Made by a program: the position numbers and the translations under genes. The notes beneath the pieces were generated by a model, which saw only the letters and a list, made by a program, of their open reading frames with translations, was not told where the DNA came from and made no database searches. From the NCBI GenBank assembly GCA_965660655.1, contig CBFIAW010000002.1, positions 1 through 59,201 of the forward strand: DNA of 59,201 nucleotides, given 5' to 3'. Source of the DNA: Candidatus Thalassarchaeaceae archaeon. GTDB lineage: Archaea > Thermoplasmatota > Poseidoniia > Poseidoniales > Thalassarchaeaceae. Numbering within the stretch: the stretch's first letter is position 1; the number at the start of each line of letters is the position of its first letter. Shown here in pieces: positions 31,784 to 34,947 of this stretch.

Positions 31784-33385
31784 CTATGAATTCGGGCCTG
31801 TCATTTCCTTAGGTTTTACCCAGTCTGTGAACTGATCATCGTTGAGTAACTCGAGTTCGAGAGCACTCTCCCTTAAGGTCAGACCTTTCTCGAGGGCGTT
31901 CTTTGCAATCTTAGCAGCATTGTCATACCCTATGTGTGGGTTTAGTGCGGTCACTAACATTAATGAGTTCTCCAAATGGTCAGATATTTTCTCTTCGTTC
32001 GCTTTCACACCGATAACACACTTGTCGGAGAAGGTTACGCAAGTGTCGGAAAGTAGCCTTATGCTGTGCAAGAGATTGTGAATCATCATTGGCTTGAATA
32101 CATTCAACTCGAAGTTCCCCTGACTTCCACCTATAGAAATTGCAGTGTGATTACCCATTACCTGGCAGCAAACCATTGTCATCGCTTCTGATTGGGTTGG
32201 ATTCACCTTTCCAGGCATGATACTTGATCCTGGCTCATTAGCTGGAAGAGCGAGTTCTCCAAGTCCGCACCTGGGCCCAGAACCTAGCCATCGAATATCA
32301 TTGGCGATTTTCATGAGAGATGCTGAGAGGGTGTTGAGTGCCCCTGAGGCAGCGACTATGGCATCGTGTGCAGCGAGTTGGGCAAACTTGTTTTCTGCAC
32401 TAATGAAAGGAAGGCCAGTCTTCTCGGCTATCTTCTTGGAGACCAAGTCTGCGAAGTCGGGATGGGTGTTCAGCCCAGTACCAACGGCAGTTCCACCTAA
32501 TGCGAGTTCAAGTAGGTCATTCAGTGCTGTTTGGATTCTAATTAGGCCAGCATCCAACATCGAAACATATGCTCCGAACTCTTGTCCTAGAGTTAGCGGG
32601 ACGGCATCCATCAGATGAGTTCGTCCGATCTTGACGATATGCACGAACTCATCTGCCTTTTCGGCCAGAGAAGTTCGAAGTTTCTGCACAGATGGGATGA
32701 GTCGGTGCTGGATCTCCTCTGCTGCAGCGATATGCATTGCAGTGGGGAATGTGTCATTGCTCGACTGGGCACGATTAACGTGGTCATTCGGGTGGACGGG
32801 GGATTTGGTTCCCAGTTTCCCTCCTGAAGACTCTATGGATCTATTTGCAATTACCTCATTTGCATTCATGTTAGTCTGAGTTCCCGAACCAGTCTGCCAA
32901 ATCCTGAGTGGGAAATGGTCGTCAAGAGATCCAGAAATTACCTCTTCGCATGCCTCCGAAATGAGGGTTCCAACATCCTCGTCGAGAGTTCCCAGAAATA
33001 CGTTTGTCTCGGCGGCTGCCTGCTTAAGAATTCCAAACGCTCTGATGACTGAGCGGGGCATCTGGTCTTCACCAATATCGAAGTTGATTAGCGACCTAGC
33101 AGTTTGTGCACCAAAATATCTGTCTGCTGGCACCTCAATTTCTCCCATGGTGTCTAGCTCAATCCTAACCTTCCCACGGACACCCTTGGGAGACCTTGAA
33201 ACGGATGATTTGGCAGTGATCTGATGGGCATTGCCCCCGGTGAGTGAAGTCTCAATCATCTTGGAGATAGTTGCCGATCTGCCCTTCTCACGACCCTGCC
33301 CAACCCGCGCATCCAATCTTCTAGCCAAATCCTCAGGAATGCTAACAGTGATTATTCTACGATCGCCGACTCTATGCTTTGCCAT
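31784..33385 (-). CDS. fumC: Class II fumarate hydratase with an in-frame N-terminal ribbon-helix-helix (CopG/Arc-like) extension
   Basis: The core from residue ~73 reads [23 protein letters not shown]..., with [17 protein letters not shown] (the class II signature). Residues 9-48, [40 protein letters not shown], fit the RHH strand-helix-helix pattern. No stop codon lies between the two parts. Confidence 0.9.
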
Positions 33386-33390
33386 GTTGT

Positions 33391-33420
33391 CTCTATTAAT
33401 AACTTATTAATAAATTTATT
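33391..33420 (-). promoter_or_regulatory. AT-rich TATA-box-like element upstream of the RHH-fumC start
   Basis: The minus strand reads ...gaataaatttattaataagttattaatagagacaacATG. It is the only strongly AT-rich stretch in the 46-bp gap between the cyclophilin stop and the fumC ATG. The spacing is consistent with a short-leader or leaderless mRNA. Confidence 0.35.
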
Positions 33421-33431
33421 CTTCCTTGGTT

Positions 33432-33941
33432 TCAGGCTCGTTCTACCTTGATAATCCTCTGAGGTGAAGACGGCCTGTCACCAGGAAGTGTCTCTGTAGA
33501 TTCGATCGCCCTAACCACTTCCATTCCCTTGGCGACCTCTCCGAATACTGCATGTCTACCGTCGAGCCATGGAGTGACTACGGTAGTGAGGAAGAATTGT
33601 GACCCCCCTGTGTTTGGACCTGAATTTGCCATTGAGAAGATGCCTGGCTTGTCATGCTTCTTTCCCAATGCTGAAGGCTCGCAGGGAATTTTCCAACCCG
33701 GGCCCCCAGTCCCAGCCCTTCCATTGTTTGCATCACTGGAGTGAGGGCATCCCCCTTGGATCATGAAATCCTTGATGACACGGTGAAAGTGTAATCCGTC
33801 ATAGAATCCGTCGTCCACCAATTTTAGAAAATTCCCAGTTGTCTCTGGGCATTCATCAGTATACAGCTCTATGTCAATTTCTCCAGCGCTTGTAGTCATC
33901 CGCACGTAGGTCATATTGTGTTTCGGCAGTTCCAAGTTCAA
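33432..33941 (-). CDS. ppiB: Peptidyl-prolyl cis-trans isomerase, cyclophilin type
   Basis: FHRVIKDFMIQGG, GTGGPGW, SMANSGPNTGGSQFF, LDGRHAVFG. Confidence 0.9.
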   Translation of the reverse strand: MNLELPKHNMTYVRMTTSAGEIDIELYTDECPETTGNFLKLVDDGFYDGLHFHRVIKDFMIQGGCPHSSDANNGRAGTGGPGWKIPCEPSALGKKHDKPGIFSMANSGPNTGGSQFFLTTVVTPWLDGRHAVFGEVAKGMEVVRAIESTETLPGDRPSSPQRIIKVERA

Positions 33942-33959: not shown

Positions 33960-34358
33960 CTATGCTACCGTTGACCCTGGGGGCGTTCCCTCTGGAATCT
34001 CTAGAAGCTTCACGGTTCCGTCTGCATCGAGGGCTCCAAGGATTAGAAATTGGGAAACAAACCCGGTCGGAAGTGTCTTTTCTCCAAGATTTATCGCGGC
34101 GACTACCGATCTGCCGATTAGCTGAGATCGAGAATAGTTGGTGATTTGCGCAGAGCTCCATAGTTTTCCGACCACGGGTCCGAAATCCACTCTAATCTTG
34201 TAAGACGGCTTTCTCATCTCCGGGAACTCTTGAACATCATCGATAACTCCAGTCCTCATATCTATGGAGAAGAACTCCCCTATCCCGATGTACTCCTTTC
34301 GATCTAGCTTGGAGGGATGATAGGGTAGGCTCTCTGGATCAATCTCATGCTGCCCCAT
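33960..34358 (-). CDS. csaA: tRNA-binding domain protein (CsaA/Trbp111-like)
   Basis: FFSIDMRTGVIDDVQEFPEMRKPSYKIRVDFG...SSAQITNYS...LIGRSVVAAINL...SQFLILGA is collinear with B. subtilis CsaA. The ATG at 34358 lies just after the pyrE stop. Confidence 0.8.
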   Translation of the reverse strand: MGQHEIDPESLPYHPSKLDRKEYIGIGEFFSIDMRTGVIDDVQEFPEMRKPSYKIRVDFGPVVGKLWSSAQITNYSRSQLIGRSVVAAINLGEKTLPTGFVSQFLILGALDADGTVKLLEIPEGTPPGSTVA

Positions 34359-34362
34359 TTCT

Positions 34363-34947
34363 TCAACTCGCAATTTCTGACTTGAGAGTAAGTGGGATGA
34401 GGGGGATTCCTGCTTCTTGAAATGCTTCCAAGCCCCCTTCCTGCCTATCCAATATGGTGATGCAGGATGCCACATCACATCCCATCTCCATTAGCCTCTG
34501 CGCTGCCTTCAATGCGGAACCCCCAGTAGTGGTCACATCTTCCAAGAGTACTATTCTGTGGCCCCCCTCAAGACTTGAGCCCTCTATTCCGGGTGGGTTT
34601 CCTGTCTTCCTTCCACCTCTTCCCTTGGGTTCCTTCCTAACTATGAATCCCTTGAGTGAGGAGCCTCGTCCAGCCTTTGCAATTGCAATTCCAGTGAGGG
34701 GGACGGCTCCCAGTTCGAGCCCCCCTACAGCATCTACTTGGCCGATTGTCTCAATTTGGTGATGAATAAGCACCCCCAAAAGATGTGCACATTCGGGATC
34801 CATCATCACTGGTTTCATGTCGAAGAAGTGCTTGCTCTTCCTTCCACTAGCTAGGATAAAATCTTCTTTTTCTGAGTAAAGATAAGCCAATTCGCGAATC
34901 CGCACAATCAGAATTTCTCTTGCTTGCTCCACCGTAGTTGATGCCAT
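34363..34947 (-). CDS. pyrE: Orotate phosphoribosyltransferase
   Basis: SGRKSKHFFDMK and the PRPP-binding motif IVLLEDVTTTGGSALKA. Confidence 0.85.
   Translation of the reverse strand: MASTTVEQAREILIVRIRELAYLYSEKEDFILASGRKSKHFFDMKPVMMDPECAHLLGVLIHHQIETIGQVDAVGGLELGAVPLTGIAIAKAGRGSSLKGFIVRKEPKGRGGRKTGNPPGIEGSSLEGGHRIVLLEDVTTTGGSALKAAQRLMEMGCDVASCITILDRQEGGLEAFQEAGIPLIPLTLKSEIAS

What the first reader, a model, noticed from the sequence alone, without database searches (positions are those of the whole stretch)
33170..33385. Ribbon-helix-helix DNA-binding domain fused in frame to class II fumarase
Seen in sequence: the fumC ORF is about 72 residues longer at the N-terminus than the canonical enzyme, whose core begins at [23 protein letters not shown]. 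Residues 9-48, [40 protein letters not shown], fit the CopG/Arc/MetJ RHH pattern (beta-strand, helix, loop with G, helix). A Ser/Lys-rich linker follows. No stop codon separates the two parts. The only AT-rich TATA-like element (33391-33420) lies directly upstream of the RHH ATG. The codons for V69 and V73 at the junction are GTC and GTT, so neither is a start. Established knowledge: RHH domains are dimeric operator-binding modules. Class II fumarase is a tetramer and has been reported to act in the DNA-damage response in yeast, human cells and B. subtilis. Inference: this is a DNA-tethered or autoregulatory fumarase, an unusual enzyme-regulator fusion.
Basis: partly seen in the sequence, partly recalled or inferred. 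Interest (0 to 1): 0.6.

Follow-up and report, generated by a model that had tools for sequence, protein, structure and literature searches.

The report
Fumarase fused to DNA-binding RHH domain
In this Marine Group II ocean archaeon the Krebs-cycle enzyme fumarase carries a small, strongly conserved ribbon-helix-helix DNA-binding domain at its front end, and its own promoter holds a unique matching two-box A/T element, so the enzyme probably also switches its own gene off; DNA binding is untested.

Summary
ORF 31784-33385 (-) encodes a 533-aa protein. Residues 73-529 are a complete class II fumarase (TIGR00979, 771.7 bits against a cut-off of 664.75). Residues 1-48 are a NikR/CopG-type ribbon-helix-helix (RHH) domain, and residues 49-72 are a disordered linker.

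The fusion is not an artefact. It is present without stops in 233 species-level genomes, and all of the 80 kept loci that carry a specific name are Marine Group II (Poseidoniales). The RHH is under purifying selection as strong as the enzyme core (dN/dS 0.06 against 0.045). The linker evolves almost freely (about 0.6) but keeps its length (24 aa in 52 of 71). There is no conserved internal start codon.

The promoter implies a leaderless mRNA that starts at the RHH ATG. It carries a 20-bp element, TTTATTAATAA-N-TAATTAAT, with two ATTAAT boxes 11 bp apart. The element overlaps the TATA box, is unique in the genome, is conserved in 73 of 89 distinct promoters, and is missing upstream of all 19 RHH-less orthologues.

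Best reading: a PutA-like "trigger enzyme" that represses its own gene (about 0.6; DNA binding untested). I found no paper describing it. This scan had already reported the same fusion on at least seven other genomes.

The parts
33395..33414 (-). Conserved 20-bp promoter/operator element TTTATTAATAAGTTATTAAT. It contains a TATA-like TTTATTAA (33407-33414) and two ATTAAT boxes (33406-33411 and 33395-33400) 11 bp apart, and lies inside a perfect 19-bp palindrome (33394-33412).
   Evidence: The palindrome is unique in the genome at up to 3 mismatches. The 9-mer TTATTAATA occurs only here. The logo from 89 distinct promoters is, and the two-box count (73 of 89) is. The PWM scores 34.5 bits here against 18.5 for the next-best site in the genome.
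33383..33385 (-). ATG start codon of the fusion. It lies 29 nt downstream of the first T of the TATA-like box and is preceded by a conserved C, so it is the likely 5' end of a leaderless mRNA.
   Evidence: The distance is 28-32 nt in all 89 anchored promoters, and no conserved sequence lies between the element and the ATG. The transcription start site is inferred, not measured.
33242..33385 (-). RHH domain, residues 1-48: basic N-arm MAKHRVGDR, beta-strand RIITVSI (about residues 9-16), helix A (18-28), G-rich loop, helix B (36-48, [14 protein letters not shown]).
   Evidence: dN/dS is 0.06-0.07.
33170..33241 (-). Linker, residues 49-72: Ser/Ala/Pro/Lys/Glu-rich and predicted disordered. Its sequence is free but its length is constrained.
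   Evidence: dN/dS is 0.55-0.67. The length is 22-27 aa, with 24 aa in 52 of 71 distinct linkers, and 88% of residues are polar or small. Mean pLDDT is 33 for residues 51-60.
31787..33169 (-). Class II fumarate hydratase core, residues 73-533, with an intact [11 protein letters not shown] loop and HPNDHVN motif. The stop codon is at 31784-31786.
   Evidence: TIGR00979 scores 771.7 bits against a cut-off of 664.75, while aspA models fall below their cut-offs. Pfam domains are. dN/dS is 0.045.

Best explanation
This is the cell's housekeeping class II fumarase, permanently fused through a roughly 24-residue flexible linker to an N-terminal NikR/CopG-type ribbon-helix-helix domain. RHH domains work as dimers that put a two-stranded beta-ribbon into the DNA major groove. 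A fumarase tetramer would supply four RHH chains, which is two dimers. The gene's own promoter holds two palindromic ATTAAT boxes one helical turn (11 bp) apart. They overlap the TATA box and fill the space down to about -10 of a leaderless transcript. The most likely mechanism is that the enzyme binds these boxes and blocks TBP/TFB/RNA polymerase, which would give negative autoregulation of fumarase level. Fumarate or malate occupancy may tune this, as in a PutA-like trigger enzyme. What is shown: the fusion, its translation as protein (from the selection pattern), its RHH homology, the conserved gene-specific dyad, and the absence of the dyad wherever the RHH is absent. What is inferred: dimer formation, DNA binding, the operator assignment, repression rather than activation, and any effect of metabolites.
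For: There is one open frame, and the enzyme is a complete fumC_II. No class I fumarase was found in the assembly, which is 72% complete. The extension occurs in all sampled Thalassarchaeaceae-like genera except one, and in about half of the Poseidoniaceae-like genomes. The start motif is present in 233 species-level genomes, and ORF length is 530-535 aa in 76 of the 78 complete ORFs. dN/dS is 0.06 for the RHH, 0.55-0.67 for the linker and 0.045 for the core. In 59 of 78 loci there is no ATG/GTG/TTG in the 20 codons before the DTMG Met. RHH homology rests. The promoter logo is TTTATTAATAA-N-taATTAAt at a fixed 28-32 nt from the ATG. Both ATTAAT boxes match with at most 1 mismatch in 73 of 89 distinct promoters, and at most 5 match at any other register. 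The element is unique in G000 and in the near-closed genomes G045 and G041, and is not found in RHH-less G020 and G073. All 19 RHH-less fumC upstream regions score 0.3 bits or less, against a leave-one-out median of 33.4 bits for fused loci. RHH-less genomes have no stand-alone copy of this RHH.
Against: The window's own RHH_1 score is just below Pfam's cut-off. The AF2 confidence for the domain is low (pLDDT 47-63), and Foldseek found nothing. The left half of the element is also the TATA box, so part of its conservation is explained by promoter function alone. The joint loss of RHH and element is weak evidence because the two are adjacent and one deletion removes both. The domain has been lost at least about six times, so it is dispensable in some lineages. 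It is unknown whether two RHH dimers of one tetramer can reach boxes 11 bp apart.
Confidence: 0.6

Rival explanations
1. The fumarase is tethered to DNA. The RHH would anchor the enzyme on the chromosome, either non-specifically or at A/T-rich sites, so that fumarate or malate is made locally, for example for a DNA-damage response as reported for fumarases of yeast, human cells and B. subtilis. Gene regulation would not be the purpose.
For: The RHH domain and its basic N-arm (K3, H4, R5, R9, R10) are invariant. Moonlighting of fumarase in the DNA-damage response is established knowledge, but I did not verify it here.
Against: The only strong match to the conserved element in three genomes is the gene's own promoter. 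That points to one specific site rather than general tethering. No DNA-repair genes are linked: the neighbours are a cyclophilin, a tRNA-binding protein, a phosphoribosyltransferase and DNA polymerase II DP2.
Confidence: 0.1
2. The RHH-like domain does not bind DNA. It would serve assembly, stability or allosteric control of the enzyme, or bind another protein, and the A/T element would simply be a strong promoter for a leaderless, highly expressed gene.
For: The TATA box accounts for positions 0-7 of the element. No binding data exist. The domain was lost repeatedly without loss of the enzyme.
Against: The residues predicted to face DNA on the strand (I11, T/S13, S15) and the N-arm are the most conserved part of the domain. 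The 12 bp downstream of the TATA box are conserved as a second ATTAAT box in exact 11-bp register with a variable 3-nt spacer, which a TATA box does not need. Other A/T-rich promoter-like 8-mers in this genome are followed by about 50% A+T.
Confidence: 0.15
3. The protein is a transcription factor with a wider regulon. It would control other genes, for example of central metabolism, and its own promoter would be only one target; or it would act as an activator rather than a repressor.
For: Weaker PWM matches exist in G000, at 18.5 bits (C12:20418) and 15.3 bits (C3:8180).
Against: Those sites score about half the fumC site and are not followed by an ORF of 60 aa or more. G045 and G041 have no second site at up to 2 mismatches. 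A site that covers the TATA box down to -10 is the usual position of archaeal repressors.
Confidence: 0.1
4. The long form is an artefact. The true start would be internal, or two genes would have been fused by an assembly or frameshift error.
For: None was found. The Met of DTMGE exists, but it is a conserved core residue of all class II fumarases.
Against: The same open frame is present in 233 species-level genomes from many studies. The extension is under protein-level purifying selection. There is no conserved internal start. The conserved promoter sits in front of the RHH ATG. RHH-less orthologues start at M..VRIE.DTMGE, a position that holds no start codon in 59 of 78 fused genes.
Confidence: 0.02

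Closest known systems
PutA (proline utilisation A) of E. coli, Salmonella and Pseudomonas putida
   Same: It has an N-terminal RHH domain fused in one polypeptide to catabolic enzyme domains. The RHH binds operators in the protein's own control region and represses transcription. It is the classic 'trigger enzyme' (cited in PMC5397151).
   Different: The enzyme is unrelated (proline dehydrogenase and P5C dehydrogenase, not fumarase). PutA is bacterial, its switch is membrane association driven by FAD reduction, and it has several GTTGCA sites. Here the gene is archaeal, with two ATTAAT boxes over the TATA box and an unknown signal. This protein is not a member of the PutA family.
NikR (nickel-responsive RHH repressor)
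   Same: It is the closest sequence relative of the N-domain. H. pylori NikR residues 14-52 are the best PDB hit. NikR-family proteins of other Thermoplasmatota are the only non-fumarase hits of the profile, and hhalign gives 98.3%. NikR is a tetramer that presents two RHH dimers to a two-part operator.
   Different: There is no NikR_C nickel-binding domain. The C-terminal partner is a 460-aa enzyme.
[quoted passage not shown]
   Same: These are metabolic enzymes fused to a DNA-binding domain that regulate genes of their own pathway, often their own operon. RbkR shows that this design exists in Archaea, and it also lost its DNA-binding domain in several lineages (PMC5397151).
   Different: They carry a different DNA-binding fold (wHTH or HTH) and different enzymes from vitamin and cofactor metabolism. 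None is a TCA-cycle enzyme.
Canonical class II fumarase (FumC of E. coli, CitG of B. subtilis)
   Same: There is a full-length equivalog match, the catalytic motifs are intact, and the core is the same size.
   Different: Canonical enzymes start about 6-10 residues before the DTMG/DSMG motif and have no DNA-binding domain. Their reported DNA-damage roles do not involve a dedicated DNA-binding module.

Membership tests
Class II fumarate hydratase (FumC, TIGR00979) | Full-length match above the equivalog cut-off, and a better score than aspartase models | tested here: met
   The score is 771.7 bits against a cut-off of 664.75, with model positions 1-457 of 458 on residues 73-529. aspA TIGR00839 scores 494 bits against a cut-off of 681.
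Class II fumarate hydratase (FumC, TIGR00979) | Signature loop GSxxMxxKxN and the catalytic His region | tested here: met
   [11 protein letters not shown] and [22 protein letters not shown] are present and invariant in 35 orthologues.
Class II fumarate hydratase (FumC, TIGR00979) | Fumarate/malate interconversion activity and a tetrameric state | not testable with these tools
   This needs an enzyme assay and SEC-MALS.
Ribbon-helix-helix superfamily (Pfam RHH_1; CopG/Arc/MetJ/NikR) | Sequence-profile match at the curated threshold | tested here: inconclusive
   The window protein scores 17.8-19.4 bits against a cut-off of 20.5. RHH_1 is still the top family for 19 of 19 orthologous N-termini, with a best E of 3.9e-5.
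Ribbon-helix-helix superfamily (Pfam RHH_1; CopG/Arc/MetJ/NikR) | Homology to validated RHH domains | tested here: met
   The profile hits NikR-family proteins (RHH_1 plus NikR_C by Pfam) at up to 37 bits and E 8e-9 per genome. hhalign gives 98.3% and E 2.3e-14 over 40 columns. The best PDB hit is the NikR RHH. One caveat: the NikR set was selected from the profile's own hits.
Ribbon-helix-helix superfamily (Pfam RHH_1; CopG/Arc/MetJ/NikR) | Strand-helix-helix topology | tested here: inconclusive
   AF2 gives strand 9-13 and helices 18-25 (or 18-28) and 36-48, but at pLDDT 47-63 in a monomer model. Foldseek against the PDB returned no match.
Ribbon-helix-helix superfamily (Pfam RHH_1; CopG/Arc/MetJ/NikR) | Dimerisation and sequence-specific DNA binding through the beta-ribbon | not testable with these tools
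   This needs EMSA, footprinting or a structure.
Trigger enzymes with an RHH (PutA-like design) | DNA-binding domain and active enzyme in one obligatory polypeptide | tested here: met
   There is no stop and no conserved internal start, and both parts are under purifying selection.
Trigger enzymes with an RHH (PutA-like design) | Operator in the promoter of its own gene or pathway | tested here: inconclusive
   A conserved, gene-specific two-box dyad overlaps the TATA region. It is a candidate operator only, because binding is untested.
Trigger enzymes with an RHH (PutA-like design) | Regulatory output that responds to the enzyme's substrate or catalytic state | not testable with these tools
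   This needs binding and transcription assays with and without fumarate and malate.
NikR family | C-terminal nickel-binding (NikR_C/ACT-like) domain | tested here: not met
   Pfam finds only Lyase_1 and FumaraseC_C after the RHH.

The most novel reading that the evidence does not exclude
Fumarase in Marine Group II archaea would be a metabolite-sensing transcription factor. Occupancy of the active site or the allosteric B-site by fumarate or malate would change how the two RHH dimers of the tetramer engage the two ATTAAT boxes, so that TCA-cycle flux directly sets transcription of the enzyme. This would be a one-protein feedback loop in one of the most abundant archaeal groups of the surface ocean. 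The sister order MGIII carries an unrelated N-terminal module and different palindromes on its fumarase-type enzyme, which would suggest that the design arose twice or diverged beyond recognition.
Probability: 0.25. Interest if true: 0.75.

Novelty: new variant of a known kind. Interest (0 to 1): 0.6.

Why it matters
Enzymes that also act as their own transcription factor (trigger enzymes) are few. PutA is the only well-studied one that uses an RHH domain, and I found no report of a TCA-cycle enzyme with a dedicated DNA-binding domain. Here the design is fixed across most of an uncultured, globally abundant archaeal order. The candidate operator is defined to the base pair, so a simple recombinant experiment can test it. 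A positive result would give the first regulator-operator pair for Marine Group II archaea. It would be a compact example of direct coupling between central metabolism and transcription in Archaea, and a caution that "class II fumarate hydratase" annotations hide a regulator.

Tried and rejected
1. Foldseek of the 55-residue AF2 model against the PDB returned no match. The model is short and of low confidence, so this says nothing either way.

3. The apparent stand-alone 47-aa RHH paralogue in G022 is a contig-end duplicate of the same gene.

4. The search of 1.84 billion protein representatives with the RHH profile gave strong hits only to fragments of the same fusion. The weak hits are small RHH_1 proteins. 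No other fusion partner was found.

5. Secondary PWM sites in G000 (18.5 and 15.3 bits) are not followed by ORFs of 60 aa or more, so I dropped them as regulon candidates.

6. I tried to derive a generic TATA consensus for this genome from crude ORF starts. This gave no clear motif. It showed only that all-A/T stretches are rare.

7. The MGIII N-terminal extension shows no similarity to the MGII RHH (hhalign 0.2%), to Pfam or to the PDB, so I do not call it an RHH.

8. Literature searches for fumarase or fumarate hydratase together with ribbon-helix-helix, and for Marine Group II together with fumarate hydratase, returned nothing relevant.

Full report
**1. What is in the sequence**

The minus-strand ORF at 31784..33385 encodes 533 residues with no internal stop. 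The ATG is at 33385-33383. It lies 46 nt downstream of the stop of a cyclophilin gene (33432..33941) and directly behind an almost pure A/T block at 33391-33420.

Pfam finds Lyase_1 (residues 81-411) and FumaraseC_C (477-530). NCBIfam's equivalog model for class II fumarate hydratase (TIGR00979) scores 771.7 bits against a cut-off of 664.75, and its positions 1-457 fall on residues 73-529. The aspartase models stay below their cut-offs.

V69 and V73 use GTC and GTT. No class I fumarase (PF05681) was found in the assembly, which is 72% complete, so this is probably the only fumarase.

**2. The extension is a translated, selected domain**

- **Protein database.** Searching residues 1-78 found 58 clusters at 53-94% identity. 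Nearly all are fumarases of 530-536 aa, and those with names are Thalassarchaeaceae, Thermoplasmatota or "class II fumarate hydratase".
- **Order-wide genome sample.** Six-frame searches of 201 genomes of the order found the full-length match without stops in essentially all genera of the window's family (f1) except g13. It was also found in f2 and in roughly half of family f3.
- **Species-level scan.** A pattern scan of one genome per prokaryotic species found 233 genomes that encode the start motif M[AGV]KH[RN][AVT]G[DN]R. Every kept locus with a specific name is Marine Group II, Poseidoniales, Thalassarchaeaceae or Poseidonia. In 78 of the 80 fetched loci the domain is followed by the fumarase DTMG motif. 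ORF length is 530-535 aa in 76 of the 78 complete ORFs.
- **Selection.** Nei-Gojobori estimates on 18 orthologues give a median dN/dS of 0.06-0.07 for codons 1-48, 0.55-0.67 for codons 49-72 and 0.045 for the core. Synonymous sites are near saturation, so these are rough values. The contrast in pN is plain within the genus: 0.107, 0.483 and 0.090.
- **Linker.** It is 22-27 aa long, with 24 aa in 52 of 71 distinct sequences. It is 88% polar or small residues and predicted disordered, with mean pLDDT 33 for residues 51-60. Free sequence with fixed length is what a tether looks like.
- **No internal start.** 59 of 78 loci have no ATG/GTG/TTG in the 20 codons before the DTMG Met. The only recurrent one is a synonymous GTG for the Val of VRIE, in 14 loci.
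- **RHH-less orthologues** start at M..VRIE.DTMGE.

**3. The domain is an RHH of the NikR/CopG kind**

- RHH_1 is the top Pfam family for 19 of 19 N-termini (best E 3.9e-5). The window's own sequence is just below the gathering score, at 17.8-19.4 bits against 20.5.
- A profile of 19 N-termini finds the RHH of H. pylori NikR (residues 14-52, in register) as the best PDB sequence, but only at E 0.16.
- Against 1.84 billion representatives, the strong hits are only fragments of the same fusion. The weak hits are small proteins that Pfam calls RHH_1.
- Across 301 Thermoplasmatota genomes, the only hits outside Poseidoniales are 126-128-aa proteins, at up to 37 bits and E 8e-9 per genome. Pfam confirms them as NikR family, with RHH_1 plus NikR_C.
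- A profile-profile comparison with these NikR RHH domains gives 98.3% probability and E 2.3e-14 over 40 columns. The set came from the profile's own hits, but its RHH identity is independently established.
- AF2 gives helices 18-28 and 36-48 for the isolated domain (pLDDT 62.6). In the full-length model it gives strand 9-13, helix 18-25 and helix 36-48. Confidence is low, as expected for a monomer model of an obligate intertwined dimer. Foldseek found nothing.
- The most conserved positions are the basic N-arm (K3, H4, R5, R9, R10), the strand (I11, S15), P17-E18 and the GRS cap of helix B.
- By alignment with NikR, whose DNA-contact residues R3, T5 and T7 I give from memory, the DNA-facing strand residues would be I11, T/S13 and S15. 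This is an inference.

**4. The promoter**

I aligned 89 distinct upstream regions on their TATA-like box. This gives TTTATTAATAA-N-taATTAAt. Information is high at positions 0-10, absent at position 11, moderate to high at 12-19, and absent from there to the ATG.

The first T lies 28-32 nt before the ATG (29 nt in 54 cases), and a C precedes the ATG. With an archaeal TATA box centred near -26, this puts the transcription start at or within 3 nt of the A of the ATG. That means a leaderless mRNA, whose 5'-terminal AUG is the start codon. The start site is inferred from geometry, not measured.

The element contains two ATTAAT hexamers, each itself a palindrome, exactly 11 bp apart. Both match with at most 1 mismatch in 73 of 89 promoters, and at most 5 match in any other register. 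The 3-nt spacer varies freely.

Uniqueness in genomes:

- In this window the element sits inside a perfect 19-bp palindrome (33394-33412) that is unique in the 1.13-Mb assembly even at 3 mismatches.
- The 9-mer TTATTAATA occurs nowhere else.
- A PWM scores 34.5 bits here, and the next-best sites elsewhere score 18.5 and 15.3 bits. Neither of those is followed by an ORF of 60 aa or more.
- In the near-closed genomes G045 and G041, the only match at up to 2 mismatches is the fumC promoter. RHH-less G020 and G073 have none.
- All 19 RHH-less fumC upstream regions score 0.3 bits or less, against a leave-one-out median of 33.4 bits for fused loci.

This co-absence is weak evidence on its own, because one deletion can remove both neighbouring features. 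The second box and its register are the stronger argument.

Genus g6 carries a variant, TTTAATAAC-N11-GTTATTAAA. The same half-site is spaced about one helical turn further apart.

**5. Evolution**

I built a maximum-likelihood tree of 56 core sequences with IQ-TREE under LG+C20, using the MGIII/f50 sequences as outgroup. All early-branching MGII lineages are fused, and the RHH-less sequences are nested inside fused clades. Well-supported branches force at least 6 changes of state.

The outgroup branch is long, so the root is uncertain. Independently of the root, homologous RHH domains occur in f1, f2 and many f3 genera. The simplest history is therefore a fusion in the ancestor of Poseidoniales with repeated loss, mainly in f3. 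RHH-less genomes have no stand-alone copy of the domain, so these are losses and not fissions.

**6. Mechanism**

The best-supported reading is a trigger enzyme. Tetramerisation of the fumarase core brings the RHH chains together as dimers. The dimers bind the two ATTAAT boxes that overlap the TATA box and the region down to -10, and this represses the gene's own transcription. A site in that position is typical of archaeal repressors.

Whether substrate modulates binding, and whether one tetramer or two occupy the two boxes, is unknown. I put this reading at about 0.6.

The rivals are:

- DNA tethering for a DNA-damage role, at 0.1. The single specific site argues against it, and no repair genes are linked.
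- A function that does not involve DNA, with the element being only a promoter, at 0.15.
- A wider regulon, or activation rather than repression, at 0.1.
- An annotation artefact, at 0.02.

**7. Comparison and novelty**

The design matches PutA: an RHH plus an enzyme that represses its own gene. It also matches the archaeal RbkR, as reviewed in PMC5397151. The domain's nearest sequence relatives are NikR RHH domains.

The protein is not a member of the PutA or NikR families, because the defining C-terminal domains are absent. It is a bona fide FumC.

Public records already hold the 533-aa form under the plain name "class II fumarate hydratase". Four full-text searches found no paper that describes the fusion.

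Earlier follow-ups of this same scan reported the same fusion on at least seven other genomes, with the same reading. Those are unchecked AI notes and do not count as independent evidence. I formed my reading before looking them up, and I re-derived every point here.

I rate this a new variant of a known kind, with interest 0.6.

Noticed in passing
L160-L162, L165-L186 (sister-order MGIII genomes, family f4): The MGIII fumarase/aspartase-family enzyme is 48% identical to this core. It matches NCBIfam NF008909 above its cut-off and fumC_II below its cut-off. It always carries a different, strongly conserved N-terminal extension of about 95 aa (M..YTSIRVTKEV..LQ.Y...CY..LS...). The extension shows no detectable similarity to the MGII RHH, to Pfam or to the PDB. 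Its promoter carries two tandem palindromes (TGTATGCAAAATGCATA) immediately upstream of a TTTTAATA box.
   Followed up: partly
L058 (G089, family f3, genus g5): This is a divergent version of the fusion: 521 aa, GTG start, RHH-like MPTKGRPRTHDARIVSVSFPSELLEKMDE...NRSQWIVEAVNKRL, and a shorter linker. It sits behind a similar A/T element (TTTATTAATTATCTATTAAA).
   Followed up: partly
L023 and L145 (G024 and G124, genus g5, RHH-less fumC): The open frame upstream of the fumarase start reads ...GSGRFVFTIPQSLRGLEGKGTWMTAFAGYI-MGDVRVE in both genomes. It faintly resembles the RHH strand and helix A, and could be a decayed remnant of the lost domain.
   Followed up: no
L152 and L153 (G181 contigs C13 and C9): One genome bin holds both an RHH-fused and an RHH-less fumC on different contigs. 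The RHH-less copy is nearly identical to that of another genus, so this may be a mixed bin (contamination about 2%) rather than a true paralogue pair.
   Followed up: no
Own genome G000, contig C3:26261-26644 (+), outside the window: This is the only other RHH_1 match in the assembly (27.6 bits): a protein of about 115 aa, MVSLRIPEDYLLELDRLVGFDGMRNRSDVIREAVRRML..., preceded by TTGCA/TGCAA repeats. The fumarase RHH profile does not pick it up.
   Followed up: partly
L056, L057, L059, L060 (other Thermoplasmatota): NikR-family genes (RHH_1 plus NikR_C) lie next to a gene whose product looks like a metal ABC-transporter substrate-binding protein and a cob(I)alamin adenosyltransferase-like gene. 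These are the nearest relatives of the fumarase RHH outside Poseidoniales.
   Followed up: partly
window 33960-34478 and 34363-34947 (-): The listed 172-aa tRNA-binding-domain ORF (GTG start) overlaps the 3' end of the phosphoribosyltransferase ORF by 116 nt. Its true start is probably a downstream Met. Together with the cyclophilin these three genes look like one transcription unit ending 46 nt before the fumC start.
   Followed up: no
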